From Selenomonadaceae bacterium (GTDB taxonomy: Bacteria > Bacillota > Negativicutes > Selenomonadales > Selenomonadaceae): a stretch of DNA of 58,922 bases. Both the position numbers and the translations under genes were made by a program. How positions within the stretch are numbered: position 1 is the stretch's first letter; each line of letters opens with the position of its first letter. The stretch is from assembly GCA_045616885.1 (NCBI GenBank), contig JAZLHS010000011.1, forward strand, positions 1 through 58,922. The letters are read 5' to 3'. Below the pieces are notes generated by a model. That model did not search any database, had not been told where the DNA came from, and saw only the letters and a list, made by a program, of their open reading frames with translations. This document shows, piece by piece, positions 4,609 to 58,225 of this stretch.

Positions 4609-4807
4609 TTTCGTCACCCCACCGCTTCTAAAAATCAACGATAAGTTTACTACTCTAATCAGTATCTTATTCGCCATCCCTGCGAATTATCCTCTATAAA
4701 ATTTATCCGAAAGAAAAACATTATTGTTTCCCCATTTCATAAATTTGATATATAATAGAAGCAATTGATATTTCTGTATATTCTGTAATAACCCGGAGGA
4801 ACACAAA

Positions 4808-5791
4808 ATGAACACCGAAATGCTAAAGGTTCGTCCCCGTCGTCTGAGAGTAAATCCCACGCTCCGCAGCATGGTTCGTGAGACCACCCTCTCCATAACG
4901 GATTTCGTCTATCCCCTCTTCGTCGTTGCCGGCGAAAATGTGCATGAGGAAATCCCCTCCATGCCCGGCGTCTACCATCTGTCTGTTGACAGAGCTGTAG
5001 AGGTAGCGAAGGCTGCCGCCGCGCTTGGCATTCCCTCCGTTGAAATCTTCGGCCTGCCCGAATACAAGGATGAAATCGGCAGCTCGGCCTGGGACATGAC
5101 CAGCCCGGTTCAGCGTGCTATCGCCGCTATCAAGAAGGAAGTCCCCGAGCTGATAATCGTCGGCGATGTCTGCCTCTGCCAGTACACAAGCCACGGCCAC
5201 TGCGGATGTCTGGACGGCAAATATGTAGACAATGATAAGACCCTGCCGCTCCTGGCCAAAGTCGCTGTCAGCCAGGCTGATGCCGGTGCCGACATCATCG
5301 CGCCCTCCGACATGATGGACGGACGCGTAGCTGCTATCCGCGACGGTCTCGACGAAGCCGGTCATCAGAACATCTCCATCATGAGCTATGCCGTCAAGTA
5401 CGCCTCCGGATTCTACGGCCCCTTCCGCGATGCTGCCGACAGCACACCTCAGTTCGGCGACCGCCGCCAGTATCAGATGGATCCGGCCAACATCCGCGAA
5501 GCTCTCAAAGAGACCATGCTGGATGTAGAAGAAGGCGCCGACATCATCATGGTCAAGCCTGCTATGGCTTATCTCGATGTTGTCGCCAAGGTCAAGGAGA
5601 TAACCGACTGCCCCATCGCCTGCTACAATGTCAGCGGCGAATACTCCATGATAAAGGCCGCCGCTGCCAACGGCTGGATTGACGAAAAGCGCATCACCCT
5701 CGAAACTCTCACCTCCATGAAGCGTGCCGGCAGCGACATCATCATCACCTATCACGCTATGGAGGCTGCAAAGTGGCTGGCTGAGGGCTGA
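4808..5791 (+). CDS. hemB: porphobilinogen synthase (delta-aminolevulinate dehydratase), Zn-type
   Basis: 327 aa. RPRRLR N-terminus, Cys triad [14 protein letters not shown], active-site MVKPA. GGAGGA RBS upstream. Confidence 0.95.
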
Positions 5792-5799
5792 TATAACAG

Positions 5800-5845
5800 G
5801 TTTTACCCCTCCGGCCATGCTGCGCTCGGCCACCTCCCCTAAAGG
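5800..5845 (+). repeat. GC-rich hairpin motif, diverged copy 3 (possible hemB terminator)
   Basis: ACCCCTCCGGCC...GGCCACCTCCCCTAAAGGGGAGGCTTCC. The CCTCCCC/GGGGAGG hairpin at 5823-5840 is followed by a T-rich tract. Similarity to the other two copies is weaker. Confidence 0.5.
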
Positions 5846-5850
5846 GGAGG

Positions 5851-5998
5851 CTTCCTATATGTAAATCAGGCTGCCGTATTGCCCGTGAGAAAACCGTTAA
5901 TCAACACCGGTACTTTGCGACTGACAAGCTAGCCAGCGCAGTCAGAGCTTAGTACCGCTGTGTTGATTACCGCGCGAAAGCAGGTTTTCGTCGGGCAA
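5851..5998 (+). repeat. long-hairpin repeat (LHR) copy A
   Basis: Outer arms 5861-5875 CTGCCGTATTGCCCG and 5982-5996 CGGGCAATAGGGCAG. The core GAGAAAACCGTTAATCAACACCGGTACT...AGTACCGCTGTGTTGATTAC...GGTTTTCG is shared with the other copies. Confidence 0.85.
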
Positions 5999-6040
5999 TA
6001 GGGCAGTCTTCAGTCAAATAAAACTTTTGGGAGATACGAT

Positions 6041-7360
6041 ATGCTTAATCTTGAAAAATCCGCGGCCGCTTTTGCCGAAGCCAAAAGCCTCATGCCCGGC
6101 GGCGTCAACAGCCCGGTCCGCTCCTACCGTTCCATGGGCTCCACCCCTCCCTTCATCGCCAAAGCGAAAGGCTCCAAAATCTACGACATCGACGGCAACG
6201 AATACATCGACTACGTTCTCAGCTGGGGGCCAATGGTTGTTGGCCACGCTCACGACGAAGTAATCGCCGCCATCAATGAGGCTGCTGCCCTCGGCACCAG
6301 CTACGGCGCTCCCACGCTTCGTGAGTCCGAGCTTGCCAAGCTCGTCATGACCGTCTACCCGTCCATCCAGCGAATCCGCATGGTCAACAGCGGCACCGAA
6401 GCTACTATGAGCGCGCTTCGTCTGGCTCGCGGCTATACGAAGCGTGACAAGATAATCAAATTTGTCGGCTGCTATCACGGCCACAGCGACAGCCTGCTGG
6501 TAAAAGCCGGCTCCGGCCTCGCCACCTTCGGCGTTCCCGACAGTCCCGGCGTCACCGCCGGTGTCGCCAACGACACCATCACCGTCCCCTACAACGACCC
6601 GGAAGCACTCACCGCTGTGATGAAAGAGCACGGCAGTGAAGTCGCCGCCATCATCGTGGAGCCGGTAGCCGGCAACATGGGCTGCATCCTGCCGAAGCAG
6701 GGCTACCTCGGCTTCCTCCGCAAAATCACCGAGGAATACGGTGCCCTCCTCATTTTCGACGAAGTAATGTGCGGCTTCCGGGCAAGCCTCGGCGGAGCTC
6801 AGGCTGCCTATGGCATCACACCGGATATCACCTGCCTCGGCAAAATAATCGGCGGCGGTCTCCCGGTCGCTGCTTACGGCGGCAAGGCTGAAATCATGGA
6901 CTGCGTCAGCCCGGCCGGCCCTGTCTATCAGGCCGGTACTCTCTCCGGCAACCCGCTGGCTATGGCTGCCGGTATCGCCACTCTGAAAATCCTCACCGCT
7001 GAGCCGGAGCCCGGTCAGCCGGATACTAACAGAATTCTCACTCTGAAGGTCAAGGAAATCCTCGCTGCCGTAGACGCTGCCGCAAAAAAATACGGCGTAG
7101 CCGTCCAGCTCCATCAGGCAGGCTCCATGTTCGGCATCTTCTTCAGCGAAAAAGATGTAGAGAACTACGAGGACGCCGAGGCCTGTGATCAGGAAGCCTT
7201 CAAGGTCTGGTTCCACTCCATGCTGGAGCAGGGCATCTATCTGGCTCCCAGCCAGTTCGAGACAATTTTCATGTCTATGGCTCACAGCGATGAAGATATC
7301 GCCAAGACCATCGCCGCCATCGATGTGGCTATGAAGGCCGTCGCCGACTCAAAAAAGTAA
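6041..7360 (+). CDS. hemL: glutamate-1-semialdehyde 2,1-aminomutase
   Basis: 439 aa. MPGGVNSPVR motif, class-III aminotransferase pattern, PLP-Lys context LGKIIGGG. Confidence 0.95.
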   Translation: MLNLEKSAAAFAEAKSLMPGGVNSPVRSYRSMGSTPPFIAKAKGSKIYDIDGNEYIDYVLSWGPMVVGHAHDEVIAAINEAAALGTSYGAPTLRESELAKLVMTVYPSIQRIRMVNSGTEATMSALRLARGYTKRDKIIKFVGCYHGHSDSLLVKAGSGLATFGVPDSPGVTAGVANDTITVPYNDPEALTAVMKEHGSEVAAIIVEPVAGNMGCILPKQGYLGFLRKITEEYGALLIFDEVMCGFRASLGGAQAAYGITPDITCLGKIIGGGLPVAAYGGKAEIMDCVSPAGPVYQAGTLSGNPLAMAAGIATLKILTAEPEPGQPDTNRILTLKVKEILAAVDAAAKKYGVAVQLHQAGSMFGIFFSEKDVENYEDAEACDQEAFKVWFHSMLEQGIYLAPSQFETIFMSMAHSDEDIAKTIAAIDVAMKAVADSKK

Positions 7361-7390
7361 AATAAGATGGCGAAGCCATCTATACCTCGA

Positions 7391-7540
7391 TTTAAATCCG
7401 CCGTAACATGGTTAATAAGAAAACCGTTTATCCATGCCGGTACTTAGCGATTGACAAGCTGACCAGCGAAGTCAGAGCTTAGTACCGCTGCATGGATAAC
7501 CGAATGAAAATGGGTTTTCGTTTAATCATGTTAGGCGGTA
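7391..7540 (+). repeat. LHR copy B
   Basis: Outer arms 7398-7416 and 7521-7538. Core AAGAAAACCGTTTATCCATGCCGGTACTTAGCGATTGAC...GTCAGAGCTTAGTACCGCTGCATGGATAAC...GGTTTTCG. Confidence 0.85.
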
Positions 7541-7558
7541 CGATTAATTGAACTACTC

Positions 7559-7691
7559 GGAATAACAGTCTGACAGAAACTCGCTCCCGCTCATTTATTC
7601 ACGCAACGGTACTAAGCTCCTGCTTCATATGCTTATTCGCAGGTCGCTAAGTACCGGCGTTCATAATGGTTTCTTTTCAGACAGTTATTCC
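7559..7691 (-). repeat. LHR copy C (inverted relative to B)
   Basis: The reverse complement reads GGAATAACTGTCTGAAAAGAAACCATTATGAACGCCGGTACTTAGCGACCTGC...GCAGGAGCTTAGTACCG...GTTTCTGTCAGACTGTTATTCC. Confidence 0.85.
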
Positions 7692-7737
7692 TTCGTTTTT
7701 TAAGGAAGACCCCCTTGCAAATTAAAGGAGGACAATC

Positions 7738-8919
7738 ATGAATAACTTTACCTTCTATACCCCCACCGAAATCGTCTTCGGCAAGGACACCGAAGCAAAG
7801 GTTGCCGACCTCACCAAAAAGCATGGCGGCACCCGCGTCCTCATCGTCTACGGCGGCGGCTCCGTAAAAAAGAGCGGCCTGCTGGACAGAGTTGAAGAAA
7901 CGCTGAAAGCTGCCAACATTCCCTTTGCCGAATTCGGCGGCGTCCAGCCGAATCCCCGCCTCTCTCACGCCCGTGAAGGTGTAAAGGCTGCCGCTAAGTT
8001 CGGTGCCGACCTCATCCTGGCTGTGGGCGGCGGTTCCGTCATCGACACATCAAAGGCCATCGCTCACGGCGCAGCCGACCTGTCCACCGACATCTGGGAA
8101 TACTGGTCCGGCAGCAAGACCGTGGCTCAGTCCATTCCCGTCGGCGTCATCCTCACCATCAGTGCCGCCGGCAGTGAGACCAGCAGCAGTGCCGTCCTCA
8201 CCAACGAGGAAACCGGCAAAAAGTGCGGCGTCAACACCGACTTCAATCGCCCTGCCTTCGCCATCATGAATCCTGAGCTGACCTACACGATTCCCCGTCG
8301 TCAGCTGGCCGCCGGCATCGCCGACATCATGATGCACACCCTTGACCGCTACATCACCCACGAGGAAGGCAATGAGTTCACCGACAGGGTAGCGGAAGCT
8401 CTCCTTAAGAACCTCATCCGCTTCGCAAAGCTGGCAATGACCAACCATCGTGACTATCAGGCTATGAGTGAAATAATGTGGTGCGGCTCAGTCAGCCACA
8501 ACGGCTTCACTTCCCTTGGCCGCACGATGGACTTCGGCGTTCACAAGCTGGGTCACGAGCTGTCCGGCTTCTACGATGCCATCCACGGTGAGACACTCAC
8601 TACCATGTGGCCGGCCTGGGCCCGCTACGTGATGATGGACAAGCCGGAGCGCTTCGCCCAATATGCTGAGAATGTCTGGGGCGTCTGCGTCGGCACTCCT
8701 ATCGAGCGCGCAAGAGCCGGTATCCGTGAGACCGAGGAATTCTGGCACAGCCTTGGTCTTCCCCTCTCCTTCACCGAGCTGGGCATCGGCATTAAAGACG
8801 ATGCGGAAATCGAGAAGCTTGCCGACAGCCTCTCATCCGGCGGCACAAAAAAAGTGGCCGTCTTCCGCCCGATTGGCAAGGAAGAGGCCATCGCCATCTA
8901 CAAGCTGGCAAATCACTAA
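7738..8919 (+). CDS. iron-containing (group III) alcohol dehydrogenase, YqhD/BdhA-like
   Basis: 393 aa. GGGSVIDTSKAIA nucleotide loop and conserved His residues (HxxxH region HELSGFYDAIHG). AAAGGAGG RBS. Confidence 0.9.
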   Translation: MNNFTFYTPTEIVFGKDTEAKVADLTKKHGGTRVLIVYGGGSVKKSGLLDRVEETLKAANIPFAEFGGVQPNPRLSHAREGVKAAAKFGADLILAVGGGSVIDTSKAIAHGAADLSTDIWEYWSGSKTVAQSIPVGVILTISAAGSETSSSAVLTNEETGKKCGVNTDFNRPAFAIMNPELTYTIPRRQLAAGIADIMMHTLDRYITHEEGNEFTDRVAEALLKNLIRFAKLAMTNHRDYQAMSEIMWCGSVSHNGFTSLGRTMDFGVHKLGHELSGFYDAIHGETLTTMWPAWARYVMMDKPERFAQYAENVWGVCVGTPIERARAGIRETEEFWHSLGLPLSFTELGIGIKDDAEIEKLADSLSSGGTKKVAVFRPIGKEEAIAIYKLANH

Positions 8920-8934
8920 TCATAATTTTGTTAA

Positions 8935-8975
8935 GGGCAGAGAGAATGACAAAGCATTCTCTCTGCCCTTTCCTT
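8935..8975 (+). terminator. intrinsic terminator after the alcohol dehydrogenase gene
   Basis: Perfect 14-bp stem GGGCAGAGAGAATG / CATTCTCTCTGCCC, 6-nt loop, then TTTCCTT. Confidence 0.75.
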
Positions 8976-9122
8976 AATGTAATTGCGCCGAATATAGTCT
9001 GTAAGAAAACAGTTTATCTGCGCCGGTGCTTAGCGACTGACAAACCAGCAGGTGCTGTCAGAGCTTAGCACCGCTGCGCAGATAACCTAGCGCAAGCGTG
9101 TTTTCGGCAGACAATATTCGGC
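8976..9122 (+). repeat. LHR copy D
   Basis: Outer arms 8987-9001 GCCGAATATAGTCTG and 9108-9122 CAGACAATATTCGGC. The upper stem is CGGTGCT/AGCACCG. Confidence 0.85.
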
Positions 9123-9129
9123 AGCTCCG

Positions 9130-9780
9130 TTATAATATCTCTAATGTATCAGTGGTTACCTGACAGGGCAGCCGCCATATTTTTACTCCGGCCTCCTCCG
9201 CCTCTCGCAGAGCGATGCCAAACTCTGGATGCGTCTCCACATTGGGATAGACATCCCGGATTCCATTCATCTGAATGACGAAGGCAATGACAGTCGTGTA
9301 TCCCTGCGCGGCCGCCGCCGTCAGTTCCCGAAGATGCTTCACGCCCCGCTCCGTGGGAGCATCCGGGAAGTAACCCACGCCGTCAATCTCCAAAGTGCAG
9401 CCCTTTACCTCCAGCAGAGTTTTCTCCGCGCCCTTCTCCAGATAGAAGTCAATGCGGGACTGACCGTATTTGTACTCCGGTCTTATCAGGTCATAGTCCT
9501 GCCGCTCCAGCCACTCCTTCACCACCTGATTAGGCGCCTGACTGTCAATATTTATCCAGCCGATATTTGGCTTATTGACCGCCACCAGATCATACTGAGT
9601 CTTTCTGGCCGGATTGTCACTTTTTACCAGCGCTACCTCCCGGCCGGGCAGCAGCAGCTCTTTACAGCGACCGGTATTCTTCACATGGACGGTCTCTCGT
9701 CTGCCCTCTATATCAACTATGGCGATGAAGCGATTGGGCCGCTCTGCAAATGCCCCGATTGTGCAGTTATCGTATCGCAT
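9130..9780 (-). CDS. sfsA: sugar fermentation stimulation protein SfsA (nuclease-fold DNA-binding protein)
   Basis: 216 aa. N-terminus ...RPNRFIAIVDIEGRRETVHVKNTGRCKELL is typical of SfsA. Confidence 0.85.
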   Translation of the reverse strand: MRYDNCTIGAFAERPNRFIAIVDIEGRRETVHVKNTGRCKELLLPGREVALVKSDNPARKTQYDLVAVNKPNIGWINIDSQAPNQVVKEWLERQDYDLIRPEYKYGQSRIDFYLEKGAEKTLLEVKGCTLEIDGVGYFPDAPTERGVKHLRELTAAAAQGYTTVIAFVIQMNGIRDVYPNVETHPEFGIALREAEEAGVKIWRLPCQVTTDTLEIL

Positions 9781-9874
9781 GATGTTCCTCTCTTCCTTAT
9801 TCTCTCTTCATCAGAGTGGTCTCACTATATCACACCGACGGGCCGTTTTCAAATCCCCGCTGTCTTGTCTCACA

Positions 9875-9903
9875 TTGTTCCCCCATCTCAAAGGTGCTAT
9901 AAT
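9875..9903 (+). promoter_or_regulatory. putative promoter of the EamA/YitT genes
   Basis: TTGTTC (9875-9880), 17 nt ending in TGC (an extended -10 TG), TATAAT (9898-9903). Confidence 0.6.
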
Positions 9904-9949
9904 AAACTTTATTCACTATTGAAAAAATACATTCAAAGGTCTTATATAA

Positions 9950-10834
9950 ATGACTACAAAACATAAAGGCATGGCTCTCGCCGCTGCCGGAGCTGCCTTC
10001 TGGGGCTGCGCCGGTGTAGCCGCTCAGTTCGTCCTGCAGAACAGAGGCTTCTCCCCGGAGTGGCTCACTACCGTCAGGATGCTGCTGGCCGGAGCTCTGC
10101 TTCTCGCCTTCTGCCGATTTCGCGGCGAAAATATCACCGCCATCTGGCAGAACTCTCTGGATAAAAAAGAAATCATCATCTTCTCCCTGTTCGGCATGCT
10201 GATGACTCAGTACACCTACTACGCCTGCATCAACGTCAGCAATGCACCTACTGCCACCACGCTCGGCTATCTCATGCCGGTATTCATTGTAATCTATGTC
10301 GCCCTGCGTGACCGGCAGCTGCCCACGAAAACAGAAATGTTCTGCGTCTTTCTCGCCGTAGTCGGCTCCGCTGTGCTGGTGACGAGAGGCGACTTCGGCA
10401 CGCTGGCCATCACGCCCATGGCGCTATGCCTCGGTCTCACCACCGGAGCCTCGCAAGCCGTCTACACCCTGCAGCCCCGTCGGCTGCTTACTCTCTACTC
10501 TCCGGAACTGGTGGTAGGCTGGGGCGTATTGCTGGGCGGTATCTTCTTTACCCCCATTGCTCAGCCATGGCATTTCAGCGGCATCATGGACATGACCGCA
10601 GCTCTGTCCTTTGCTTACATCGTCGTTGGCGGCACAGTCTTCGCCTTCGTCCTCTACATGGCCAGTCTTCGCCTGGTCGGCCCATCCGACGCCGCTATGA
10701 CCAGCTGCATTGAGCCGGCGGCTTCCGTCGTCGTCTCCGGTCTGGTGCTGGGCGTCACCTTCGGCCCGGCTGAGACGCTGGGCATGATGATGATACTGTC
10801 GGCCATCTGCATACTGGCCAGAAAGAACAGCTAA
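9950..10834 (+). CDS. EamA/DMT-family transporter
   Basis: 294 aa, about 10 TM segments arranged as two EamA-like halves. Confidence 0.8.
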   Translation: MTTKHKGMALAAAGAAFWGCAGVAAQFVLQNRGFSPEWLTTVRMLLAGALLLAFCRFRGENITAIWQNSLDKKEIIIFSLFGMLMTQYTYYACINVSNAPTATTLGYLMPVFIVIYVALRDRQLPTKTEMFCVFLAVVGSAVLVTRGDFGTLAITPMALCLGLTTGASQAVYTLQPRRLLTLYSPELVVGWGVLLGGIFFTPIAQPWHFSGIMDMTAALSFAYIVVGGTVFAFVLYMASLRLVGPSDAAMTSCIEPAASVVVSGLVLGVTFGPAETLGMMMILSAICILARKNS

Positions 10835-10843
10835 GGTACCCAC

Positions 10844-11752
10844 ATGATAAAAAAATTCTTCCACTATCTCGGAGTCGTCATCGGCTGCCTCATTGCCGCC
10901 GGCTCCATCAACGTCTTCCTCGTCCAGCACCATCTGCTGTCCGGCGGTCTCGCCGGTCTCGGTATCATCAGCTACTATATGTTCGGCCTGCCGGCCGGTA
11001 CGGTCACGCTGGCCCTCAATGTTCCGCTCCTCGTCGCTGCCTGGCGGACGCTGGGGAAGAAATATGTAGCAGAAATCATCTTCAGCACCGTAATGTTCTC
11101 CGTTTGCCTCGATGCTACAGAGTTCATGAACCATCTGTATGTTACCGATGACATTCTTCTGGCCGCCATCTACGGCGGTGTCTTCAACGGTATCGGCTAC
11201 GGCATACTCTACCGGCTGGGAGCCAACTCCGGCGGCATGGATATCGCTGCCGCCATCGTCAAGAAATATTATTCCTTCAATATGGGCGAGGTCGTATTCG
11301 GCATCAACTGCTGCATCATGCTGCTGGCCGCCTGCCTCTTCGGTCCGGCACCTGCCATGTATACCCTCATTTCCATGTTCATAGCCAGCCGGGTCTCTGA
11401 TATGCTGGCCGCCGGCTTCAATCACCGCAAGGCGGTCATCATCATTTCCCAGTACCCCGAGCAAATCGCAGACGGCATCATCCATCGGCTGGAACGCGGC
11501 GCTACCTTCCTTGACGGTGCCGGTGCTTTCTACGGTGATGAGAAGCGCGTAGTCTTCTCCGTTGTCCGAATGACGGAGATTGCCCGCCTGAAAAATCTCA
11601 TCCACGATGTAGACCCCACAGCTTTCATGATTTTCATCGATGCCAATGAGGTCATGGGGCGAGGCTTCACCCTCTCCCGCCAGACCGTGACCGATGCCCG
11701 AGCCGCCGGTGATAAGAGATTGGTCGGTTCCCGGTTTGATGACGGAGAATAA
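10844..11752 (+). CDS. YitT-family membrane protein (DUF2179 C-terminal domain)
   Basis: 302 aa. Repeated GGxxG membrane motifs (SGGLAGLG, NSGGMD) and a soluble C-terminal DUF2179-like end. Confidence 0.75.
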   Translation: MIKKFFHYLGVVIGCLIAAGSINVFLVQHHLLSGGLAGLGIISYYMFGLPAGTVTLALNVPLLVAAWRTLGKKYVAEIIFSTVMFSVCLDATEFMNHLYVTDDILLAAIYGGVFNGIGYGILYRLGANSGGMDIAAAIVKKYYSFNMGEVVFGINCCIMLLAACLFGPAPAMYTLISMFIASRVSDMLAAGFNHRKAVIIISQYPEQIADGIIHRLERGATFLDGAGAFYGDEKRVVFSVVRMTEIARLKNLIHDVDPTAFMIFIDANEVMGRGFTLSRQTVTDARAAGDKRLVGSRFDDGE

Positions 11753-11795
11753 CGCCGATGTCTTTTCTTTTTCACAGAGACAGACTATATGCACC

Positions 11796-11824
11796 TTGTA
11801 AAATAACCTTTGTCCATTTATAAT
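11796..11824 (+). promoter_or_regulatory. putative promoter of the PAS-GGDEF-like gene
   Basis: TTGTAA (11796-11801), 17 nt, TATAAT (11819-11824). Confidence 0.6.
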
Positions 11825-11936
11825 AGTACATAGTATTGTTTACAATGGTATTTTTATCTCAAACAATCGGCTCGCTTCTCGAACTGAAGCGAACACTGCA
11901 AGAATAATCAACTATCATCTGAAAAAGAGTGATAAC

Positions 11937-13250
11937 ATGTTTACTCCGAAACTAAGCATTGCTATTGCCGCACTGCCGGACAGTGCCGTTGAGCTGCTCC
12001 GTTCCATTGTCCCCAAAGGCACGGAAGTCTCCGTCGCACCGTCACTGAAGGGTTCTACGGATTTGTCCTACGACATCATCATCATGGGAGACAACGCGGG
12101 GATGACCCCCGATGAGATTCACGATATCGCCCCTCAGACAGTCATCTATCTGGTCACCGACCATGAGAAATCTCTCAGTCCGGAAATGTTTTTGGGCGTG
12201 CAGGAAATATGGCCGGCCGATATGACAGAGACCATCTGGACTTATCGCCTCCGCCGTATGCTGGAAGATTTCGTCGCCCGAAAGAACGGCTACTACTACC
12301 GGGCTTCGCTTGATGCCATGATAAATTCCCTGCCGGATCTCATCTGGTTCAAGGATGTTCAGGGCGCTCATCTGAAGGTCAACGATGCGTTCTGCGACTT
12401 TGTCGGCAAAGCCAAATCGGATGTGGAAGGCCGCGGTCACTACTACATCTGGGGGCTCACCGAGGAAATGTACAAGAACGGCGAGTTCGTCTGTCTGGAG
12501 ACGGAGGCCGAGGTTCTTCGCCGTGGTGTCACCTGTCACTTCGACGAACATGTAGAGAATGATTCCGGTGTCCGCAATCTGTCGACCTACAAGACACCTA
12601 TCCGCGATGAAGACGGTACTATCATAGGAACGGTAGGCGTTGCCCATGACGTCACCACCGAGGCTTCACAGAAGCGCCGCATTGAGGACCTTGCTTTCTC
12701 CGATGCCCTCACCGGTCTCTACAATCGCTACGCTTTTTATACTATGCTGTCGCGTCGCCGCGGCACGCTCCGGGTCACTATCATCACCTTTGACCTTGAC
12801 AACTTCCGACTGGTAAACGAATGCTTCGGCCATCAGTCCGGCGATGAAGCACTGCTTCTCTTCTCCAGATTTCTCCGGGACACCTTCCCCGACAACATCT
12901 GTGTCCGCATGAACGGCGACATCTTCGCCGTTGCCCTCTTCGGCGAAGTAGTGCGGGAAGATATAACCGGGAAGCTTGACAGTCTGTTTGCGCTCGTAAA
13001 GCGGTCATTCTCCGCCGAGCGTTCTCACAACTTCCTATCGGTCAGCGTCGGTATCGCCGATACGCCAAATCCCTCGCAATCGGTGGATGATGTCATTCGC
13101 CGCTGCGGCTATGCAGTCGCTCACCTGAAGCGGCGCAACGGCTTCACCATTGCCCTCGATCCCACAAAGCCGCCCAGTCCGCTGCTCCTCGACCTGCTTC
13201 GGACGAAAGCCGACTCGGCTTATTGCTTCTACGACGATATCCAGAAATAA
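11937..13250 (+). CDS. PAS + GGDEF-like signalling protein with a degenerate active-site motif (NGDIF)
   Basis: 437 aa. PAS-like segment (LPDLIWFKD...GTVGVAHDVT). GGDEF-domain landmarks DALTGLYNR and GHQSGDEAL. The GG[DE]EF position reads RMNGDIFAV (about 12912-12926). Confidence 0.75.
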   Translation: MFTPKLSIAIAALPDSAVELLRSIVPKGTEVSVAPSLKGSTDLSYDIIIMGDNAGMTPDEIHDIAPQTVIYLVTDHEKSLSPEMFLGVQEIWPADMTETIWTYRLRRMLEDFVARKNGYYYRASLDAMINSLPDLIWFKDVQGAHLKVNDAFCDFVGKAKSDVEGRGHYYIWGLTEEMYKNGEFVCLETEAEVLRRGVTCHFDEHVENDSGVRNLSTYKTPIRDEDGTIIGTVGVAHDVTTEASQKRRIEDLAFSDALTGLYNRYAFYTMLSRRRGTLRVTIITFDLDNFRLVNECFGHQSGDEALLLFSRFLRDTFPDNICVRMNGDIFAVALFGEVVREDITGKLDSLFALVKRSFSAERSHNFLSVSVGIADTPNPSQSVDDVIRRCGYAVAHLKRRNGFTIALDPTKPPSPLLLDLLRTKADSAYCFYDDIQK

Positions 13251-13279
13251 TAAATGAGACGGCAAAGCCGTCTCGACCA

Positions 13280-13430
13280 TAATATAAAACCAACGGCATA
13301 ACTACCTGTAAAGAAACCATTTATTCACGCCGCCACTTGGCGACCTGCAAGCAAGCATGCGCAGCAGGAGCTTAGTGGCGCTGCGCGAATAACTGAACGC
13401 GAGTGTGTTTCTGTCAGGCAGTTATGCCGT
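13280..13430 (+). repeat. LHR copy E
   Basis: Outer arms 13293-13308 ACGGCATAACTACCTG and 13415-13430 CAGGCAGTTATGCCGT. The upper stem is CGCCACT/AGTGGCG. Followed by TTTTTG. Confidence 0.85.
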
Positions 13431-13466
13431 TTTTGCGTCCATCTCAGCCCGAATAAATGGAGAATA

Positions 13467-13504
13467 CAAAAAATCCCGGCTGCCGCCGAAGCGGTAACCG
13501 GGAC
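13467..13504 (-). terminator. intrinsic terminator after the PRC-barrel gene (end of the long minus-strand envelope block)
   Basis: The minus strand reads AGTCCCGGTTACCGCTTCGGCGGCAGCCGGGATTTTTTG. This is a GC-rich nested stem followed by T6. Confidence 0.7.
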
Positions 13505-13532
13505 TGAACAAGCTTTATTCTATTGATTTTGA

Positions 13533-14402
13533 TTACTGTACATTCATGGAAAGCTCGACAATCTTATTGGCCAGCTTTGCCTTCTGAAGAATTTCCTCGG
13601 TGACGGTAGCGCCTACCTCGGCAATGACGAAACCGGTAGCCGTGGCAACCGGGCGAACTACCTTCTTGCCCAGCAGGAAGCGGCGATGACGCTCCTCCGT
13701 AGCACGGTCAGCCGCAGACTCAGCAGTCTCAGCCGGCTCCTCGATTACGACCGGAATTTCCGGCTCCGGTTCGGGCTCAGGCTCAGCAACGACTTCGACT
13801 TCCTCAGCAGCCGGCTCCTCAACCATCGGAACTTCTGCAACCGGCTCCTCCTCAACGACCGGAGCCTCCTCCACTACGGGAGCAGCCTCAACGACCGGTT
13901 CGGGAGCACTTAATTCTTCAGTTTTTTTTTCCGCTTCTACATCAGCATCGATAACAGTGACCTGCTTACCGAAGATGGAAATCTGGTCAGCGCTGATCTC
14001 AGCAGCACCGCCGTTTTCGTCCACGAGAGCGCACTTCTCAATGCGGCCGCCCTCACCGACGTAAATCTCGGATACCTTGCCCTGAATGGTACCGGTCTTG
14101 GTGATAGCCTTGGTACCGATAATGCGGACATTGGCATCCAGCATGGTCTCATAATCGCTGGCATCCTCGAGGGTGAGGATGTTCTCACTGTTGGTAATGG
14201 TAACAGCGTCTTCACCGATAGCGATGACGGAGGAGTACGGCAGGAGCTTTACTCCGCGATACCAATCTTCGTCCTCAATGGTGATGGCGGCAACAACGCC
14301 ATTCTTTGCATCGATGAGCAGGGATTTGCTGGTGCCCAGCTCACGGCCCTCAGTAATGCTGATAACGGGCAGATTGAGGATTTCTACGCTTTTCTTTAAC
14401 AT
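13533..14402 (-). CDS. PRC-barrel domain protein (two barrels) with an acidic Pro/Val/Glu linker
   Basis: 289 aa. Two YlmC/YmxH-like PRC-barrel segments, then the tract [50 protein letters not shown], then a conserved-looking C-terminal module. Confidence 0.65.
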   Translation of the reverse strand: MLKKSVEILNLPVISITEGRELGTSKSLLIDAKNGVVAAITIEDEDWYRGVKLLPYSSVIAIGEDAVTITNSENILTLEDASDYETMLDANVRIIGTKAITKTGTIQGKVSEIYVGEGGRIEKCALVDENGGAAEISADQISIFGKQVTVIDADVEAEKKTEELSAPEPVVEAAPVVEEAPVVEEEPVAEVPMVEEPAAEEVEVVAEPEPEPEPEIPVVIEEPAETAESAADRATEERHRRFLLGKKVVRPVATATGFVIAEVGATVTEEILQKAKLANKIVELSMNVQ

Positions 14403-21712: not shown

Positions 21713-21743
21713 TCACAACACTTCTTCATTCGCGAACATATTA

Positions 21744-23324: not shown

Positions 23325-23374
23325 GATGTAGCCTCCTAATATTTACAGACAAATGCTGTCTATACACGCTTTGC

Positions 23375-24637: not shown

Positions 24638-24650
24638 CTTCATCCCTCTT

Positions 24651-45784: not shown

Positions 45785-45844
45785 GATTTATCACCAGCAT
45801 TTTTTATATTGCCCATATTCCTCTATAAAAGTTGCGAAGAAAAA

Positions 45845-45950
45845 GGTCTGTAAGAAAACCGTTTATCACCTCACCCACCGGCTGCGCCGGTCCCCCTCCC
45901 CAGAGGGGAAGGTGGCTCGCGAAGCAAGACGGATGAGTTCTATGTCAGAC
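45845..45950 (+). repeat. LHR copy H (chimeric: basal tiers only, apex replaced by a GC-rich double hairpin)
   Basis: GGTCTGTAAGAAAACCGTTTATCACC at the 5' side and CGCGAAGCAAG...TATGTCAGAC at the 3' side match the LHR base. The centre (45866-45916) matches the motif at 58009-58055. Confidence 0.7.
45866..45916 (+). repeat. GC-rich double-hairpin motif, copy 2 (inside LHR copy H)
   Basis: CACCTCACCCACCGGCTGCGCCGGTCCCCCTCCCCAGAGGGGAAGGTGG. It matches copy 1 position for position, with compensatory loop-proximal changes (ACCGGC/GCCGGT). Confidence 0.75.
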
Positions 45951-45955
45951 TTTTT

Positions 45956-47113
45956 TCAAAGCCTATTTTTATCAAACGCGGTCTTAGCCTGACGGCTGCC
46001 CCATTCGTCATCTTCCGCAATGCCTTCTACATACCAGTCCATCCGGGAGATGATTGCCTGATCGCTGAGATTATGCCCGACGGGAATTCTTATATTTCCC
46101 CGGTTGTCCTTCACCGGGCCATAGAAAACATCCCGGTTTGTGTAGCGCAGCTGCCGTCCGACATTCTCGATTCGGGAGCGGCTGTCTCCCTTCACCGTCA
46201 GATTTATCAGCAGCCGCATATTCTCATCGATGGAGGCGAAGCGACAGCCGGGGGTAAATCGTCCTTCCAGCGCATCTTCAAGCAGACTGCGAATAAATGG
46301 CTCACTCTTCCAGATGACCGTGCCCAGCAGTACATCTCCATAATGTGCCTGCTGGTCGAGACACATACCTATAGCTTTTATGCCTCGGCGACGGCAGATG
46401 CTCAGCACCTCACGATATGGATTGACCTGCGTCACCACATCGACGGGATGCGCGGAGAGTACTCTCTCACAGGCGGCTGCCACCTTTGCTTCATCGTTAA
46501 AGGTATTCGTCCAGATTATATGTATCTTTGCATCAGGGCGAATTTTCCTTATACCCAGTGCCAGAGCATTGACCGACGTATTGATGACCGGCTGTGGCAC
46601 CGGTGCTACGATTGCTATATCTCCGGTCTTAGACTCGGAGGCGGCCAGCATACCGGCCTGATACTGAGCCTGATACATTCGGACGAAGAGCCCGCAGACA
46701 TTTGGAAACGTCCTCTCACCATAGCCGGTGTAAAACTTTACGTTTGGGTAGGCATCACTGACCTGAGCCATATCGATTGGCTGACGGACTCCCATACTGA
46801 AGATTATATCCGCCTGATCCTGATTAACCATCTTGTCCACAGCCGCCCCAAAGGAGCCATCATTGCTGTGCGCGTAATCCATAAAGACAAAGCGGCAGTT
46901 CATGTCGCTTATCTCCTCGAAGGTCTTCATCAGGGTCTCATTCCAGCCCCCATCATGACGACTTCCTTCAAAGATGACTCCGACCACTGTCTCGCGCTTC
47001 CGGAACATTTCCATCAGCCCGCCGCTGTTATTCAGCCAGTAGTAGGAGCAGGCAAAAGCCGCTGCACAGAAGGCAATGAGCAGCAGGGAGATTCCCGCCA
47101 TTATCTTCTTCAC
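45956..47113 (-). CDS. membrane-anchored BMP-family (PnrA/Med-like) periplasmic binding protein
   Basis: 385 aa. N-terminal TM anchor, then a BMP-like fold pattern (VGVIFEGSRHDGGWNE...). The GTG start overlaps the stop of the upstream sensor gene (GTGA at 47110-47113). An alternative ATG lies at 47101. Confidence 0.65.
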   Translation of the reverse strand: MKKIMAGISLLLIAFCAAAFACSYYWLNNSGGLMEMFRKRETVVGVIFEGSRHDGGWNETLMKTFEEISDMNCRFVFMDYAHSNDGSFGAAVDKMVNQDQADIIFSMGVRQPIDMAQVSDAYPNVKFYTGYGERTFPNVCGLFVRMYQAQYQAGMLAASESKTGDIAIVAPVPQPVINTSVNALALGIRKIRPDAKIHIIWTNTFNDEAKVAAACERVLSAHPVDVVTQVNPYREVLSICRRRGIKAIGMCLDQQAHYGDVLLGTVIWKSEPFIRSLLEDALEGRFTPGCRFASIDENMRLLINLTVKGDSRSRIENVGRQLRYTNRDVFYGPVKDNRGNIRIPVGHNLSDQAIISRMDWYVEGIAEDDEWGSRQAKTAFDKNRL

Positions 47114-54561: not shown

Positions 54562-54710
54562 TAATGTAAAAGCAGGGTATTACTGTCTGTAAAGAAACTA
54601 TTATGAACGCCGGCACTTGACGACTGACGAGCAAGCATGCGAAGTCAGAGTCTATGTGCCGCTGCGTGAATAAATAAACGCAAGTGAGTTTCTGTCAGAC
54701 AGTAATCCCG
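54562..54710 (+). repeat. LHR copy F
   Basis: Outer arms 54575-54589 GGGTATTACTGTCTG and 54696-54709 CAGACAGTAATCCC. The upper stem is CGGCAC/GTGCCG. Confidence 0.85.
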
Positions 54711-54735
54711 AAAGGATACATACATCGGATAAAAT

Positions 54736-58059: not shown

Positions 58060-58225
58060 TAATGTAAATCCTCGTGAATAATGTCTGTAAGAAAACCGTT
58101 AATCAACATCGGTACTTAACGAACTGCGAGTAAGCATACGACGCAGGAGTTTAGTACCGCTATGTTGATTACCGAGCGAAAGCGGGTTTTCGTCAGACAA
58201 TATTCACGAGGTCAGTCAAATAATA
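58060..58225 (+). repeat. LHR copy G
   Basis: Outer arms 58070-58087 CCTCGTGAATAATGTCTG and 58194-58211 CAGACAATATTCACGAGG. It shares the right flank TCAGTCAAATAA with copy A. Confidence 0.85.

What the first reader, a model, noticed from the sequence alone, without database searches (positions are those of the whole stretch)
5851..5998. Long-hairpin intergenic repeat family (8 copies in 59 kb) whose two arms change together
Copies lie at 5851-5998, 7391-7540, 7559-7691 (inverted), 8976-9122, 13280-13430, 45845-45950 (chimeric), 54562-54710 and 58060-58225.

Each copy folds on paper into one imperfect hairpin with the same tiers:
- An outer stem that is different in every copy yet self-complementary. 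Examples are A CTGCCGTATTGCCCG/CGGGCAATAGGGCAG, D GCCGAATATAGTCTG/CAGACAATATTCGGC, E ACGGCATAACTACCTG/CAGGCAGTTATGCCGT and G CCTCGTGAATAATGTCTG/CAGACAATATTCACGAGG. In several copies a single mismatch sits at the same depth in this stem.
- A conserved CTG-TAA-GAAAAC(C) // (G)GTTTTC-G-CAG tier with an asymmetric bulge.
- A middle stem: A TTAATCAACAC/GTGTTGATTAC, G ..CAACAT/ATGTTG.., B TTTATCCATG/CATGGATAAC, D TTTATCTGCG/CGCAGATAAC.
- An upper stem: CGGTACT/AGTACCG in A, B, C and G; CGGTGCT/AGCACCG in D; CGCCACT/AGTGGCG in E; CGGCAC/GTGCCG in F.
- A cap of CTGAC..GTCAG or CCTGC..GCAGG.

These are double, pair-preserving substitutions. That points to selection or repair acting on the folded form (RNA or ssDNA), not simple decay of a dead MITE. 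I cannot match the element to an Rfam or IS family from memory. The density here (about 1 per 7 kb) would imply hundreds of copies per genome if it is typical.
Basis: seen in the sequence. Interest (0 to 1): 0.75.

Follow-up and report, generated by a model that had tools for sequence, protein, structure and literature searches.

The report
Structured hairpin repeat of gut Bacillota
The window carries seven full copies and one broken copy of a roughly 140-base intergenic repeat that folds into a long hairpin with a conserved core; it belongs to an apparently uncatalogued family spread through gut and rumen Bacillota, of the same general kind as ERIC and REPIN repeats, and its fold is kept by selection.

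Summary
A covariance model finds exactly seven full copies (138-152 bits, strand-specific) plus the chimeric remnant F. In the seven copies, 95.7% of stem cells pair and 34 of 51 pairs show double substitutions; register-slid controls give 30-40% and at most 6.

The family is much wider than the window. A pattern scan and the model recovered about 140 copies in Selenomonadaceae, Anaerovibrio, Lachnospiraceae, Oscillospiraceae, Mogibacterium and others. All share a roughly 142-nt rod: a variable basal stem, a UAA/GU loop, a junction bearing a 2-bp mini-hairpin with a GNRA loop (114/117), and the core CGGUACU-U-AGC-GA//A-GCU-U-AGUACCG.

One strand is the folded one: G·U 236 versus A·C 73, and it is more stable in 112/122 copies. 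Copies are intergenic, multicopy, gained, lost and flipped between related species, with no target duplication and no linked transposase. Orthologous copies are nevertheless often more conserved than flanking genes.

There is no match in Rfam 15, phages, plasmids, IMG/VR, E. coli genomes or the searchable literature.

Verdict: a new member of the ERIC/REPIN/"mobile-repeat candidate" kind. Whether RNA or single-stranded DNA is the selected form, and what mobilises it, remain unresolved.

The parts
5869..6008 (+). Copy A: long hairpin between hemB (4808-5791) and hemL (6041-7360). P1 arms are 5870-5885 and 5992-6006.
   Evidence: Model hit of 141.5 bits. MFE -71.9 kcal/mol, z -8.0. The relative L121 has hemB and hemL only 23 nt apart, so it serves as an empty site.
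5828..5869 (+). Copy A 5' module: small hairpin GGCCACCTCCCCTAAAGGGGAGGC (5828-5851, part of a second repeat at 5801-5850) plus the linker TTCCTATATGTAAATCAG. The 3' tail TCTTCAGTCAAATAA lies at 6007-6021.
7399..7538 (+). Copy B: long hairpin downstream of hemL. Its 5' small hairpin is at 7365-7381 and its linker at 7382-7398.
   Evidence: Model hit of 141.7 bits. An orthologous copy sits at the same site in Schwartzia sp. RGIG250 (L090), with a conserved inner part and both outer arms replaced.
7556..7694 (-). Copy C: inverted copy lying tail-to-tail with B. The tail is at 7539-7555, the linker at 7695-7709 and the small hairpin at 7710-7731, all on the minus strand.
   Evidence: Model hit of 139.6 bits on the minus strand. 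It is absent from the syntenic L090 locus.
8985..9124 (+). Copy D: long hairpin between the convergent genes Fe-ADH (7738-8919, +) and sfsA (9130-9780, -). The 5' small hairpin is at 8935-8968 and the linker at 8969-8984.
   Evidence: Model hit of 152 bits. Gene identities come from Pfam. At this locus L090 carries the whole unit in the opposite orientation.
13292..13431 (+). Copy E: long hairpin after the PAS-GGDEF gene (11937-13250). The 5' small hairpin GAGACGGCAAAGCCGTCTC is at 13256-13274 and the linker at 13275-13291.
   Evidence: Model hit of 145.2 bits. L090 has only a 5' remnant at this locus.
45834..45962 (+). Copy F: remnant. The arms are 45834-45867 and 45935-45962. The core is replaced by a 48-nt unit of a second repeat family at 45868-45915.
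   Evidence: D7, D8; 11-15 bits.
54573..54712 (+). Copy G: long hairpin between a condensation-domain gene (53238-54536) and a MatE gene (54736-56424). The 5' small hairpin is at 54537-54557 and the linker at 54558-54572.
   Evidence: Model hit of 138.5 bits. Gene identities come from Pfam.
58071..58210 (+). Copy H: long hairpin after the LytR_cpsA_psr gene (56461-58008). The 5' small hairpin is at 58032-58052 (within the second repeat, 58008-58052), the linker at 58053-58070 and the tail GTCAGTCAAATAA at 58211-58223.
   Evidence: Model hit of 148.9 bits. The syntenic locus L112 has a copy of another subfamily in the opposite orientation. This places H's right boundary after ...GTCAGTCAA.

Best explanation
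**What it is.** This is a previously uncatalogued family of roughly 142-nt structured interspersed repeats. It works like ERIC, REPIN and the Breaker laboratory's "mobile/repeat sequence candidates". It occurs in gut and rumen Bacillota, in both Negativicutes and Clostridia.

**Shown.**
- One defined strand of each copy folds into a rod. From the base upward it has: a lineage-specific basal stem P1; a conserved UAA/GU internal loop; P2; a three-way junction carrying a 2-bp mini-hairpin with a GNRA loop; P3; a near-invariant core helix CGGUACU-U-AGC-GA // A-GCU-U-AGUACCG with a U·U mismatch and a GA/A bulge; and a variable cap.
- Copies are strictly intergenic and multicopy.
- They occur in near-identical bursts in some genomes.
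- They are gained, lost, nested and flipped between related species.
- They make no target-site duplication and have no linked transposase, integrase or reverse transcriptase.
- Resident orthologous copies evolve under purifying selection on the fold.

**Inferred.**
- The family spreads as a non-autonomous element that relies on a factor encoded elsewhere. That factor reads the conserved apical junction rather than the ends.
- In Selenomonadaceae the element lands immediately 3' of terminator-like hairpins.
- Once resident, it is transcribed with its neighbours (for example inside the hemB-hemL spacer). The RNA hairpin is the form under selection, acting on the flanking mRNA by 3'-end protection, endonucleolytic processing or insulation, as proposed for ERIC and Correia elements.
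- I put RNA versus single-stranded or cruciform DNA as the selected form at roughly 55:45.
For: **Structure and covariation.**
- Window copies: 95.7% of cells paired and 34/51 pairs with double changes.
- About 124 distinct copies: 92.8% paired, 48/51 pairs with double changes, covariation score 0.664 against 0.168 in shuffles and at most 0.083 when slid.

**Strand specificity.**
- The model scores 138-152 bits on one strand and 17-30 bits on the other.
- G·U 236 versus A·C 73 overall, and G·U exceeds A·C in every helix.
- The modelled strand is more stable in 112/122 copies, by 7.7 kcal/mol on average.

**RNA-like features.**
- The mini-hairpin loop fits GNRA in 114 of 117 copies, with N and R varying: GAGA 54, GGGA 16, GCAA 14, GAAA 13, GCGA 13, GGAA 4.
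- Its 2-bp stem covaries (GC/GC, AC/GU, AU/AU) among the window copies.
- Some copies carry an extra covarying 160-nt helix inserted at the junction.
- Rod length is constant, median 142 nt, in all lineages.

**Repeat and mobile behaviour.**
- Near-identical copies and tandem arrangements occur within MAGs JAMPGX and JAAZLU.
- Only 6 of 143 copies overlap a called gene.
- Against the syntenic Schwartzia locus L090: copy C is absent, the D unit is inverted, and E is reduced to a remnant.
- hemB-hemL is an empty site in L121.
- L005 and L092 are 95.5% identical genomes, yet the element is precisely flipped in situ.

**Placement after hairpins.**
- 24 of 31 Selenomonadaceae copies have a small hairpin of at least 7 bp ending 12-19 nt 5' of the rod, against 2 of 31 on the 3' side.
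- These small hairpins fall into at least three unrelated types that also occur alone as A-tract/hairpin/T-tract terminators.
- In that lineage the upstream gene is co-oriented in 22 cases against 8.

**Selection in situ.**
- Orthologous copies are 98.6-100% identical where the flanking genome is 85.5-92.7% identical and the adjacent 100 nt about 67%.
- Other pairs: 92.5% versus 79.2%, 90.5% versus 78.7%, 95.9% versus 87.4%.
- Across 16 orthologous comparisons, 49 of 841 stem pairs changed by a double substitution and 28 by a WC<->G·U change. Unpaired positions differ at 136 of 657.
Against: - Outside Selenomonadaceae, orientation relative to flanking genes is random. Over all lineages, tandem intergenic regions hold 43 sense and 40 antisense copies. 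Read-through transcription would therefore make the "wrong" strand in half the cases.
- I saw no conserved promoter in or next to the element (and reading the flanks).
- A clean in-situ flip also argues against a strictly sense-strand cis role.
- d(GCGAAAGC)-type mini-hairpins and G·T pairs are also stable in DNA (own knowledge), so none of the RNA-like features excludes ssDNA.
- No trans-acting mobilising gene was identified, and no recent insertion with a clean empty site was captured. Mobility is therefore inferred from distribution, not shown.
- Invariance of the core among L001-L114 is partly circular, because those loci were fetched with a pattern that fixes the core. The independent evidence is the window copies (which vary in CGGTACT but keep CUU..CGA / AG..UAG) and the roughly 30 unseeded copies found by the model.
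- The orthologue substitution counts used an alifold structure from each pair. That method cannot report pairs broken in one member, although 49-58 pairs were recovered in all but one comparison (41 for L036/L093).
Confidence: 0.5

Rival explanations
1. The selected form is single-stranded or cruciform DNA. The top-strand hairpin, with its three-way junction and hyperstable mini-hairpin, would be the substrate of a structure-specific enzyme encoded elsewhere. Candidates are an HUH/Y1 transposase (as for IS200/IS605 and REP-RAYT), a tyrosine recombinase (as for attC or Xer-folded sites), or a nucleoid or replication protein that binds junction DNA. Because a cruciform extrudes both strands at once, the orientation of the element would not matter.
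For: - There is no orientation bias relative to genes (43:40).
- A precise in-situ flip occurs between close relatives.
- No target-site duplication appears at any offset in two young subfamilies.
- In Selenomonadaceae the element sits at a fixed 12-19 nt from a pre-existing hairpin, on the hairpin's 3' side. One hairpin in L101 is flanked by two diverging copies.
- The spacing between the two core half-sites varies, which fits a folded rather than a B-form target.
- G·T exceeding A·C and a GCGAAAGC-type mini-hairpin are both compatible with DNA (plus own knowledge of Hirao's DNA mini-hairpins).
Against: - Individual orthologous copies are under purifying selection in situ. A purely selfish DNA substrate does not predict this.
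- The loop variation follows the RNA GNRA rule, with position 3 always a purine.
- No Y1 transposase, integrase or recombinase gene is present in the window.
- None is recurrent among 148 neighbouring genes in other genomes.
- The element is absent from plasmid, phage and IMG/VR collections.
Confidence: 0.3
2. The copies are independent small-RNA genes. They would form a multicopy family of roughly 140-nt structured RNAs, each with its own promoter and a trans-acting function such as protein sequestration or scaffolding.
For: - The core is strongly conserved across two classes of Bacillota.
- The architecture combines a GNRA loop with a three-way junction.
- Orthologues are conserved in situ.
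- Independence from the orientation of neighbouring genes is what stand-alone genes would show.
Against: - I saw no conserved -35/-10 motif upstream and no consistent T-tract terminator downstream.
- A density of about one per 10 kb, tandem and nested copies, and truncated or chimeric remnants are not typical of sRNA genes.
- Several copies sit 2-30 nt from flanking coding sequences, inside operon spacers.
Confidence: 0.08
3. There is no selection on structure. The arms would stay complementary for mutational reasons, such as hairpin-templated correction of quasi-palindromes or nested gene conversion between copies. On this view the family is an ordinary decaying palindromic MITE.
For: - Blocks of adjacent pairs switch together, for example CUGAC/GUCAG versus CCUGC/GCAGG.
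- Orthologous copy B has had both outer arms swapped while its interior is retained. This shows that recombination between copies contributes to the pattern.
Against: - Arm-to-arm correction would erase asymmetries. Yet the U·U mismatch, the GA/A bulge, the UAA/GU loop and the 3'-arm mini-hairpin persist in all seven window copies and in the unseeded copies.
- It predicts G·T roughly equal to A·C, but 236:73 is observed.
- It predicts stems diverging at about the neutral rate. Yet a locus-specific P1 is 100% identical between species whose adjacent intergenic DNA is about 67% identical.
- Paralogues in the same genomes have different P1 stems, so conversion from paralogues cannot explain that conservation.
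Confidence: 0.04
4. The copies are integron attC sites or another cassette-type recombination site, with the genes between them acting as cassettes.
For: - attC sites are likewise conserved in structure more than in sequence, with extrahelical bases (own knowledge).
- In the window, copies follow successive same-strand genes (hemB, hemL, ADH).
Against: - The conserved sequence is apical, not basal, and there are no RYYYAAC/GTTRRRY core sites at the foot.
- No integrase is present in the window.
- The flanking genes are housekeeping genes that are syntenic in relatives lacking the element.
- Copies occur in both orientations.
Confidence: 0.01

Closest known systems
ERIC / IRU (enterobacterial repetitive intergenic consensus) elements
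   Same: Both are imperfect palindromes of about 130-140 bp. Both are confined to intergenic, often co-transcribed DNA and occur in either orientation. Both are highly conserved between species while their locations differ, and some copies of both carry extra sequence inserted at an internal site. Neither has an identified transposase. ERIC is proposed to act as an RNA hairpin on flanking mRNAs. (The ERIC properties are from my own knowledge of Hulton 1991, Sharp 1997, Wilson & Sharp 2006 and De Gregorio 2005.)
   Different: There is no sequence homology: blastn of copy H against 5,426 E. coli genomes found nothing. The host range is different (gut and rumen Bacillota). Here only the apical junction core is conserved across lineages, while the basal stem is lineage-specific. 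A mini-hairpin with a GNRA loop forms a three-way junction. No TA-type target duplication was found.
REPINs (REP doublets forming hairpins) mobilised by RAYT transposases (PMC3116915, PMC3337134)
   Same: Both are non-autonomous, hairpin-forming, multicopy intergenic elements without a classical transposon structure. Both form clusters by insertion next to or into existing copies, and in both the enzyme is encoded in trans. The two inverted core half-sites here (CGGTACTTAGC ... GCTTAGTACCG) can be read as a doublet.
   Different: In a REPIN the two roughly 25-nt REPs are the conserved part and the spacer is free. Here complementarity runs through the whole 142 nt and the conserved part is near the apex. 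No RAYT/Y1 gene was seen in the window or among recurrent neighbours.
"Mobile/repeat sequence candidates", e.g. the MRSC-65-2 motif (Narunsky et al. 2024, PMC11109978)
   Same: Both are a single long stem with strong covariation, present in dozens of copies per genome with inconsistent orientation relative to genes. Those authors also leave open whether RNA or DNA is the relevant form.
   Different: MRSC-65-2 is defined by a UYCCGG sequence repeat and is sometimes found near transposase genes. This family has a different conserved core, a three-way junction with a GNRA loop, and no transposase association.
Correia/NEMIS elements of Neisseria and bcr1 of the Bacillus cereus group (own knowledge)
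   Same: These are 100-160-bp intergenic inverted-repeat elements that are transcribed into hairpins and, for Correia, processed by RNase III. bcr1 shows compensatory changes consistent with an RNA structure.
   Different: Both have conserved terminal inverted repeats and defined target duplications (TA for Correia, TTTAT for bcr1). Neither feature is present here.
Bacterial group IIC introns, as an analogy for target choice only (own knowledge: Robart, Seo & Zimmerly 2007)
   Same: Both insert immediately downstream of intrinsic-terminator stem-loops, with orientation set by the hairpin strand. Here, 24 of 31 Selenomonadaceae copies lie 12-19 nt 3' of a small hairpin.
   Different: A 142-nt rod has no ribozyme domains and no reverse transcriptase. 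The association with small hairpins is seen only in the Selenomonadaceae subfamily. The small hairpin could instead be part of a mosaic unit, as in E. coli BIMEs.

Membership tests
Classical MITE (deletion derivative of a DDE-transposase IS) | Conserved terminal inverted repeats at the element ends | tested here: inconclusive
   The arms are inverted repeats along their whole length. The termini are conserved only within sublineages, for example TAGGCAATTGCGAAA...TTTCGCAAACGCCTA in MAG JAMPGX. Across the family the ends are the least conserved part.
Classical MITE (deletion derivative of a DDE-transposase IS) | Direct target-site duplication flanking each copy | tested here: not met
   I scanned all offsets for k = 2-8 in two young subfamilies, JAMPGX (9 copies) and JAAZLU (6 copies). 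No offset gave a repeat in more than 2 copies. The Selenomonadaceae flanks (TAATGTAAAT and TAAGTCAAAT) each have their own consensus, so they are not duplications.
Classical MITE (deletion derivative of a DDE-transposase IS) | A parent IS with the same ends and a transposase gene | tested here: not met
   None of the 47 window genes has a transposase, integrase or RT domain. No such family recurs among neighbours of copies elsewhere. A genome-wide search for a parent IS was not possible.
REP / REPIN-RAYT system | A 20-40-nt REP palindrome, singly or as an inverted doublet with a free spacer; REP clusters flanking a single-copy RAYT (Y1 transposase) gene | tested here: not met
   The unit is a continuous 142-nt rod. 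No Y1_Tnp-type gene is present in the window or recurrent near other copies. Presence of a RAYT elsewhere in these genomes could not be tested.
ERIC | Sequence homology to the ERIC consensus | tested here: not met
   blastn (word size 11, E <= 0.01) of copy H with flanks against all complete E. coli genomes found no match. That those genomes carry ERIC copies is my own knowledge.
ERIC | An imperfect palindrome of about 127 bp in intergenic DNA, in either orientation, conserved between species | tested here: met
   This supports "works like", not membership.
IS200/IS605-derived PATE | Two distinct subterminal hairpins, no TIR or TSD, insertion 3' of a fixed 4-5-nt target, and a Y1 transposase | tested here: not met
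   No TSD was found, which is compatible. However, there is one rod rather than two end hairpins. The bases preceding the unit are the 3' ends of unrelated hairpins (..GCCC..GTCTC..GGAGG) and share no tetranucleotide. No Y1 gene was seen.
Integron attC site | R''/R' core sites (RYYYAAC / GTTRRRY) at the foot of the hairpin, a nearby intI, and arrays of promoterless cassettes | tested here: not met
   The foot of the stem is variable and the conserved sequence is apical. There is no integrase. The flanking genes are syntenic housekeeping genes.
Any Rfam 15 family | A covariance-model match at or near the gathering score | tested here: not met
   There were 0 hits at the gathering threshold in the whole window. 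Nothing overlapped a copy at E <= 10 in 5700-13600. On one copy alone, only generic miRNA-precursor or hairpin noise appeared, with a best score of 23.6 bits against a cut-off of 52.7. The junction insert of L100 also had no hit.
Mobile/repeat sequence candidate (descriptive category, PMC11109978) | Multiple copies per genome, inconsistent orientation relative to genes, and a structure supported by covariation | tested here: met
   The frequent transposase association mentioned for that category is not seen here.
Intrinsic transcription terminator | A G+C-rich hairpin followed directly by a T-tract | tested here: not met
   The terminator scan of 5700-13600 flags none of the long hairpins. It flags only the small 5' hairpins, and on the opposite strand. 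Among the window copies only E is followed by a T-run.

The most novel reading that the evidence does not exclude
The element is not merely selfish DNA. On this reading it is a host-maintained structured nucleic-acid module. Its conserved apical three-way junction (a U·U/GA-bulged helix plus a mini-hairpin with a GNRA loop) would be the docking site for a still unknown factor shared by Clostridia and Negativicutes. It would be installed next to terminator hairpins without target duplication, and its orientation could be flipped in situ through its own arms. That would make it either a new class of hairpin-targeted, trans-mobilised element or a new widespread RNA- or DNA-based insulator or switch acting between genes.
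Probability: 0.22. Interest if true: 0.8.

Novelty: new member of a known kind. Interest (0 to 1): 0.56.

Why it matters
If the reading holds, gut and rumen Bacillota carry their own counterpart of ERIC and REPIN elements. These organisms are under-studied for non-coding elements.

- **Abundance and reach.** The element is an abundant, strongly structured module sitting between housekeeping genes and even inside operons such as hemB-hemL.
- **An unusual combination.** Selection on the fold in situ, a core conserved across two bacterial classes, no linked enzyme, no target duplication and flippable orientation together make it a tractable case for a long-standing question: are such repeats parasites, domesticated regulators, or both?
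- **Practical uses.** The covariance model gives an annotation tool for MAGs, where these rods probably break assemblies and seed spurious ORFs. It also gives a handle for strain typing, and a defined bait (the 50-nt core) for finding the partner protein.

Tried and rejected
1. **Rfam at three stringencies**: nothing found.
2. **Other collections.** Similarity searches against plasmids, phages and E. coli genomes and a pattern scan of IMG/VR: nothing found.
3. **Literature.** Searching for the core sequence as a text string and by topic gave no description of this family. I found only the generic MRSC category and the REPIN papers.
4. **Exact-protein look-up** of HemL to identify the source genome: not on record.
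5. **Recurrent neighbouring genes.** An apparent uvrA association (8 loci) and a histidine-kinase association (7 loci) were artefacts of clustering ABC-ATPase and HK superfamily members. A Pfam scan of 148 neighbours shows only housekeeping families recurring.
6. **Target-site duplication scan:** negative.
7. **Tetraloop receptor.** I looked for covariation between tetraloop identity and any helix column: no signal.
8. **Promoter or terminator signals associated with the rods:** none were consistent. One hybrid promoter-like match lies at the 3' end of copy D.
9. **Ideas considered from memory and dropped.**
   - ssoA single-strand origins, because CS-6 TAGCGA occurs in the core. Those are plasmid-borne with the motif in the terminal loop, whereas here copies are chromosomal, dispersed and the motif lies in a stem.
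   - Retron msr-msd, because of the UUAGC context. There is no reverse transcriptase and the element is multicopy.
   - A dif/Xer half-site in the linker TTAATGTAAAT. It shares only a 7-mer with the XerD arm and has no partner arm.
   - An ATG-TAA start-stop mini-ORF in the linker. A Shine-Dalgarno-like sequence is present only with one hairpin type.
   - parS. The flanking TGTTCAC...GTGAACA is simply a continuation of the hairpin.
10. **First attempt to measure hairpin length** from the outermost RNAfold pair over-extended the hairpin. I replaced it with a stepwise extension.
Full report

Yes. The repeat finder groups the reported sites. All eight sequences align. Each of the seven full copies folds into one long imperfect hairpin far more stable than shuffled sequence: MFE -58.7 to -76.3 kcal/mol, z -6.8 to -11.5.

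RNAalifold on the seven copies gives 51 pairs, of which 34 have at least one copy changed on both sides. Counting that structure directly:
- 95.7% of cells are paired.
- 69 cells carry double changes and only 3 carry one-sided changes.
- 0 of 500 shuffles reach these values.
- Sliding the 3' partner by 1-3 columns gives 30-40% pairing and 2-6 such pairs.

A covariance model built from the seven copies, run over the window with filters off, finds exactly those seven sites at 138.5-152 bits. The reverse strand of the same sites scores 17-30 bits, and the chimeric remnant F scores 11-15 bits.

Two points need adjusting:
- The outer stems are diverged versions of a few subfamily consensus sequences, not unrelated sequences.
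One is a 2-bp mini-hairpin on the 3' arm with a GNRA loop and a covarying stem (GC-GAAA-GC, GC-GCAA-GC, GC-GGGA-GC, AC-GCAA-GU, AC-GCGA-GU, AU-GAAA-AU). The second is a 3-bp covarying apical stem. The third is conserved flanking modules.

**2. Anatomy in the window**

Each unit reads, 5' to 3':
- a small terminator-like hairpin;
- a 14-18-nt linker, consensus YnCCTTAATGTAAAT;
- the rod, which from the base upward has P1 of about 15-17 bp, a UAA/GU internal loop, P2 GAAAAC/GUUUUC, a three-way junction with the GNRA mini-hairpin, P3, the core CGGUACU-U-AGC-GA // A-GCU-U-AGUACCG, a 5-bp cap, an internal loop, and a 3-bp stem with an AGCA-type loop;
- a tail resembling TAAGTCAAATAA.

All copies are intergenic:
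- A lies between hemB and hemL.
- B and C lie tail-to-tail between hemL and an Fe-ADH gene.
- D lies between the convergent ADH and sfsA genes.
- E follows a PAS-GGDEF gene.
- G and H lie in a cell-envelope gene region (Pfam).

None of the 47 called genes in the window has a transposase, integrase or reverse-transcriptase domain.

**3. The family is far wider than this genome**

The hosts include:
- Selenomonadaceae, Schwartzia, Anaerovibrio and Veillonellaceae MAGs;
- Lachnospiraceae, Oscillospiraceae, Anaerovoracaceae, Mogibacterium, Eubacterium, Coprococcus, Butyrivibrio and Christensenellales;
- one contig binned as Bacteroides.

Almost all come from rumen or gut samples.

Every hit has the same architecture with entirely different outer stems. 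The window-derived model recovers them, plus about 30 unseeded extra copies in the same loci.

On the 125-row model alignment:
- 92.8% of 5,952 cells are paired, against 32-40% when slid.
- 48 of 51 pairs carry double changes.
- The covariation score is 0.664, against 0.168 for shuffles and at most 0.083 when slid.

With a stepwise extension of the basal stem, the rod has a median length of 142 nt (mostly 125-155) both in Selenomonadaceae and elsewhere. Some lineages continue pairing beyond an internal loop, to more than 200 nt.

Caveat: the invariance of the core in the fetched loci is partly imposed by the search pattern. The independent evidence is the window copies, where CGGUACU covaries (UGC/GCA, CCAC/GUGG, GCAC/GUGC) while CUU..CGA / AG..UAG is kept, together with the unseeded copies.

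**4. One strand is the folded one**

- Among non-Watson-Crick cells, G·U outnumbers A·C 236 to 73.
- This holds in every helix, for example P1 75:33, P3 38:12 and the cap 62:8.
- The modelled strand is more stable than its complement in 112 of 122 copies, by 7.7 kcal/mol on average, p about 1e-20.
- The mini-hairpin loop is GNRA in 114 of 117 copies, with N and R varying.
- Two copies in one MAG (L100, L111) carry an additional 160-nt hairpin inserted at the junction. Its own stem shows compensated differences between the two copies.

These features are typical of structured RNA. However, G·T pairs and GCGAAAGC-type mini-hairpins are also stable in DNA (own knowledge), so single-stranded DNA is not excluded.

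**5. It behaves like an interspersed, turning-over repeat**

Position and orientation:
- Only 6 of 143 copies overlap a called gene.
- Between tandem genes, 43 copies are sense and 40 antisense.
- 24 copies lie between convergent genes and 14 between divergent genes. The background in the same loci is 58 convergent and 59 divergent.

Copy-number behaviour:
- Some MAGs hold many near-identical copies, sometimes in tandem.

Comparison with the syntenic Schwartzia sp. RGIG250 contig, which is 87% identical in hemL:
- A and B are present at the same sites.
- C is absent.
- At the D locus the whole unit is inverted and most resembles C.
- At the E locus only a 5' remnant survives.

Comparison with more distant relatives:
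- They lack the element around the ADH gene altogether.
- In L121, hemB and hemL are only 23 nt apart, against 250 nt in the window.

In-situ flip:
- Two Lachnospiraceae MAGs that are 95.5% identical carry the element precisely flipped in situ, with breakpoints in the outer arms. Recombination between the arms would produce this, and it helps explain the lack of orientation bias.

Negative results:
- No target-site duplication was found.
- No mobile-element gene recurs near copies.
- Apparent uvrA and histidine-kinase associations were clustering artefacts.
- The element is absent from the plasmid, phage and IMG/VR collections and from E. coli genomes.

**6. Placement in Selenomonadaceae**

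- 24 of 31 copies have a small hairpin of at least 7 bp ending 12-19 nt upstream of the rod. Only 2 of 31 have one at the mirror position downstream.
- These small hairpins belong to at least three unrelated sequence types. The same types occur elsewhere without the rod, as A-tract/hairpin/T-tract terminators.
- In L101 a single hairpin is flanked by two copies diverging from it.
- In this lineage the upstream gene is co-oriented in 22 cases against 8.

There are two readings. Either the element, starting with its linker, inserts at the 3' foot of pre-existing hairpins, which would be analogous to the target choice of group IIC introns. Or hairpin, linker and rod form a BIME-like mosaic. I could not decide between them. 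The double "hairpin plus linker" remnant at the E locus of L090 remains unexplained.

**7. Resident copies are under selection**

I found orthologous copies between species through flanking synteny.
- L002, L019 and L083 are 98.6-100% identical over 137 nt, including a locus-specific P1. Their flanking genomes are 85.5-92.7% identical and the adjacent 100 nt about 67%.
- Other pairs give 92.5% versus 79.2%, 90.5% versus 78.7% and 95.9% versus 87.4%.
- Over 16 comparisons, 49 of 841 stem pairs changed by a double substitution and 28 by a WC<->G·U change. Unpaired positions differ at 136 of 657.
- Reading L018 against L024 by eye shows one A-U to G-C double change, two U·G/C-G changes and two loop changes, with nothing that breaks a pair.

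Paralogues in the same genomes have different P1 stems, so conversion between copies cannot explain this conservation. Arm-to-arm correction would predict stems diverging at about the neutral rate and the loss of the conserved asymmetries. The Selenomonadaceae copies turn over faster: B against its orthologue is 62% identical, with both outer arms exchanged.

**8. What it most likely is and does**

The best-supported reading is a structured interspersed repeat of selfish origin, spread by a function encoded elsewhere. That function probably recognises the conserved apical junction rather than the ends. Resident copies are retained because the fold of one strand matters to the cell.

I favour the transcript as that form. 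The reasons are the GNRA rule, helix insertions at the junction, location inside transcription units, and the sense bias in Selenomonadaceae. On this view it acts on neighbouring mRNAs, as proposed for ERIC and Correia elements.

The random orientation elsewhere, the in-situ flip, the absence of target duplication and the hairpin-adjacent placement keep a single-stranded or cruciform DNA mechanism a serious rival (about 0.3). Stand-alone sRNA genes, neutral palindromes and attC sites are unlikely.

**9. Comparison with known families, and novelty**

Functionally and architecturally the closest are ERIC, REPINs and the Breaker laboratory's "mobile/repeat sequence candidates" (PMC11109978, PMC3116915). 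Membership in each named family fails on at least one defining feature that I tested:
- no ERIC homology;
- not a REP doublet, and no RAYT seen;
- no TSD and no parent IS;
- no attC core sites and no integrase;
- no Rfam match.

I found no description of the sequence in the searchable literature. It is therefore a new member of a known kind. What sets it apart is that the apex rather than the termini is conserved across two bacterial classes, and that individual copies are demonstrably under purifying selection.

Noticed in passing
window 5801-5850, 45868-45915, 58008-58052; also L025 ~5205, L051 ~180, L066, L107 ~4260, L121 ~4700: There is a second repeat family of about 50 nt: ACC(C/T)C(A/T)CCCACCGG..GC..CCGGTCCCCCT-N2-4-AGGGG(G)A(A)GG, forming two small hairpins. 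It sits directly 5' of copies A and H and replaces the core of remnant F. It is also present in relatives that lack the long hairpin at that spot.
   Followed up: partly
window 8935-8968; L006 ~7712, L025 ~6030, L028 ~7056, L061 ~1358 and ~4490, L071 ~5542, L090 ~4980, L107 ~5755: A recurrent terminator-like hairpin has a conserved inner part (GAAAAATGA-N4-6-TCATTTTTC) and a covarying G+C-rich outer stem. It appears at unrelated loci in several Selenomonadaceae genomes, both with and without the long hairpin beside it. It may be a small repeat family in its own right.
   Followed up: partly
window 14518-16071 (-), repeats at 14974-15635: This ORF encodes a protein with an N-terminal membrane segment and about 15 tandem 14-residue [14 protein letters not shown] repeats (42-nt period). 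It has no Pfam match.
   Followed up: no
L090 1-340 (reverse complement), syntenic with window 13250-13470: A remnant here consists of a small hairpin, the linker TTCCTTAATGTAAAAATC and one P1 arm (AGTGAATATGGTCTGTAA). It is followed immediately by the reverse complement of a second linker (TCCATCATTAAGGAT) and a second small hairpin with a T-tract. So two inverted "hairpin plus linker" modules lie 18 nt apart. I cannot explain this arrangement.
   Followed up: partly
L005 2005-2145 versus L092 1078-1218: Two Lachnospiraceae MAGs that are 95.5% identical carry the same copy in opposite orientation relative to identical flanks. The inversion has its breakpoints in the outer arms. I did not test whether both orientations coexist within one population.
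   Followed up: partly
L100 2267-2430 and L111 (reverse complement) ~4685-4848: A structured insert of about 160 nt sits at the three-way junction of two copies in one Veillonellaceae MAG. Its own stem shows compensated differences between the two copies. It has no Rfam match.
   Followed up: partly
window 9108-9136 (+): A promoter-like match (CAGACA-17-TATAAT, 10 of 12 positions) spans the 3' arm of copy D and its flank. However, the next gene downstream (sfsA, 9130-9780) is on the other strand.
   Followed up: no
window 17504-26166 (-): TamB/AsmA, an outer-membrane efflux protein and MlaD/MlaE/ABC genes are present. This fits a diderm Negativicutes host, in line with 81-88% nucleotide identity to contigs of a Schwartzia MAG.
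   Followed up: no
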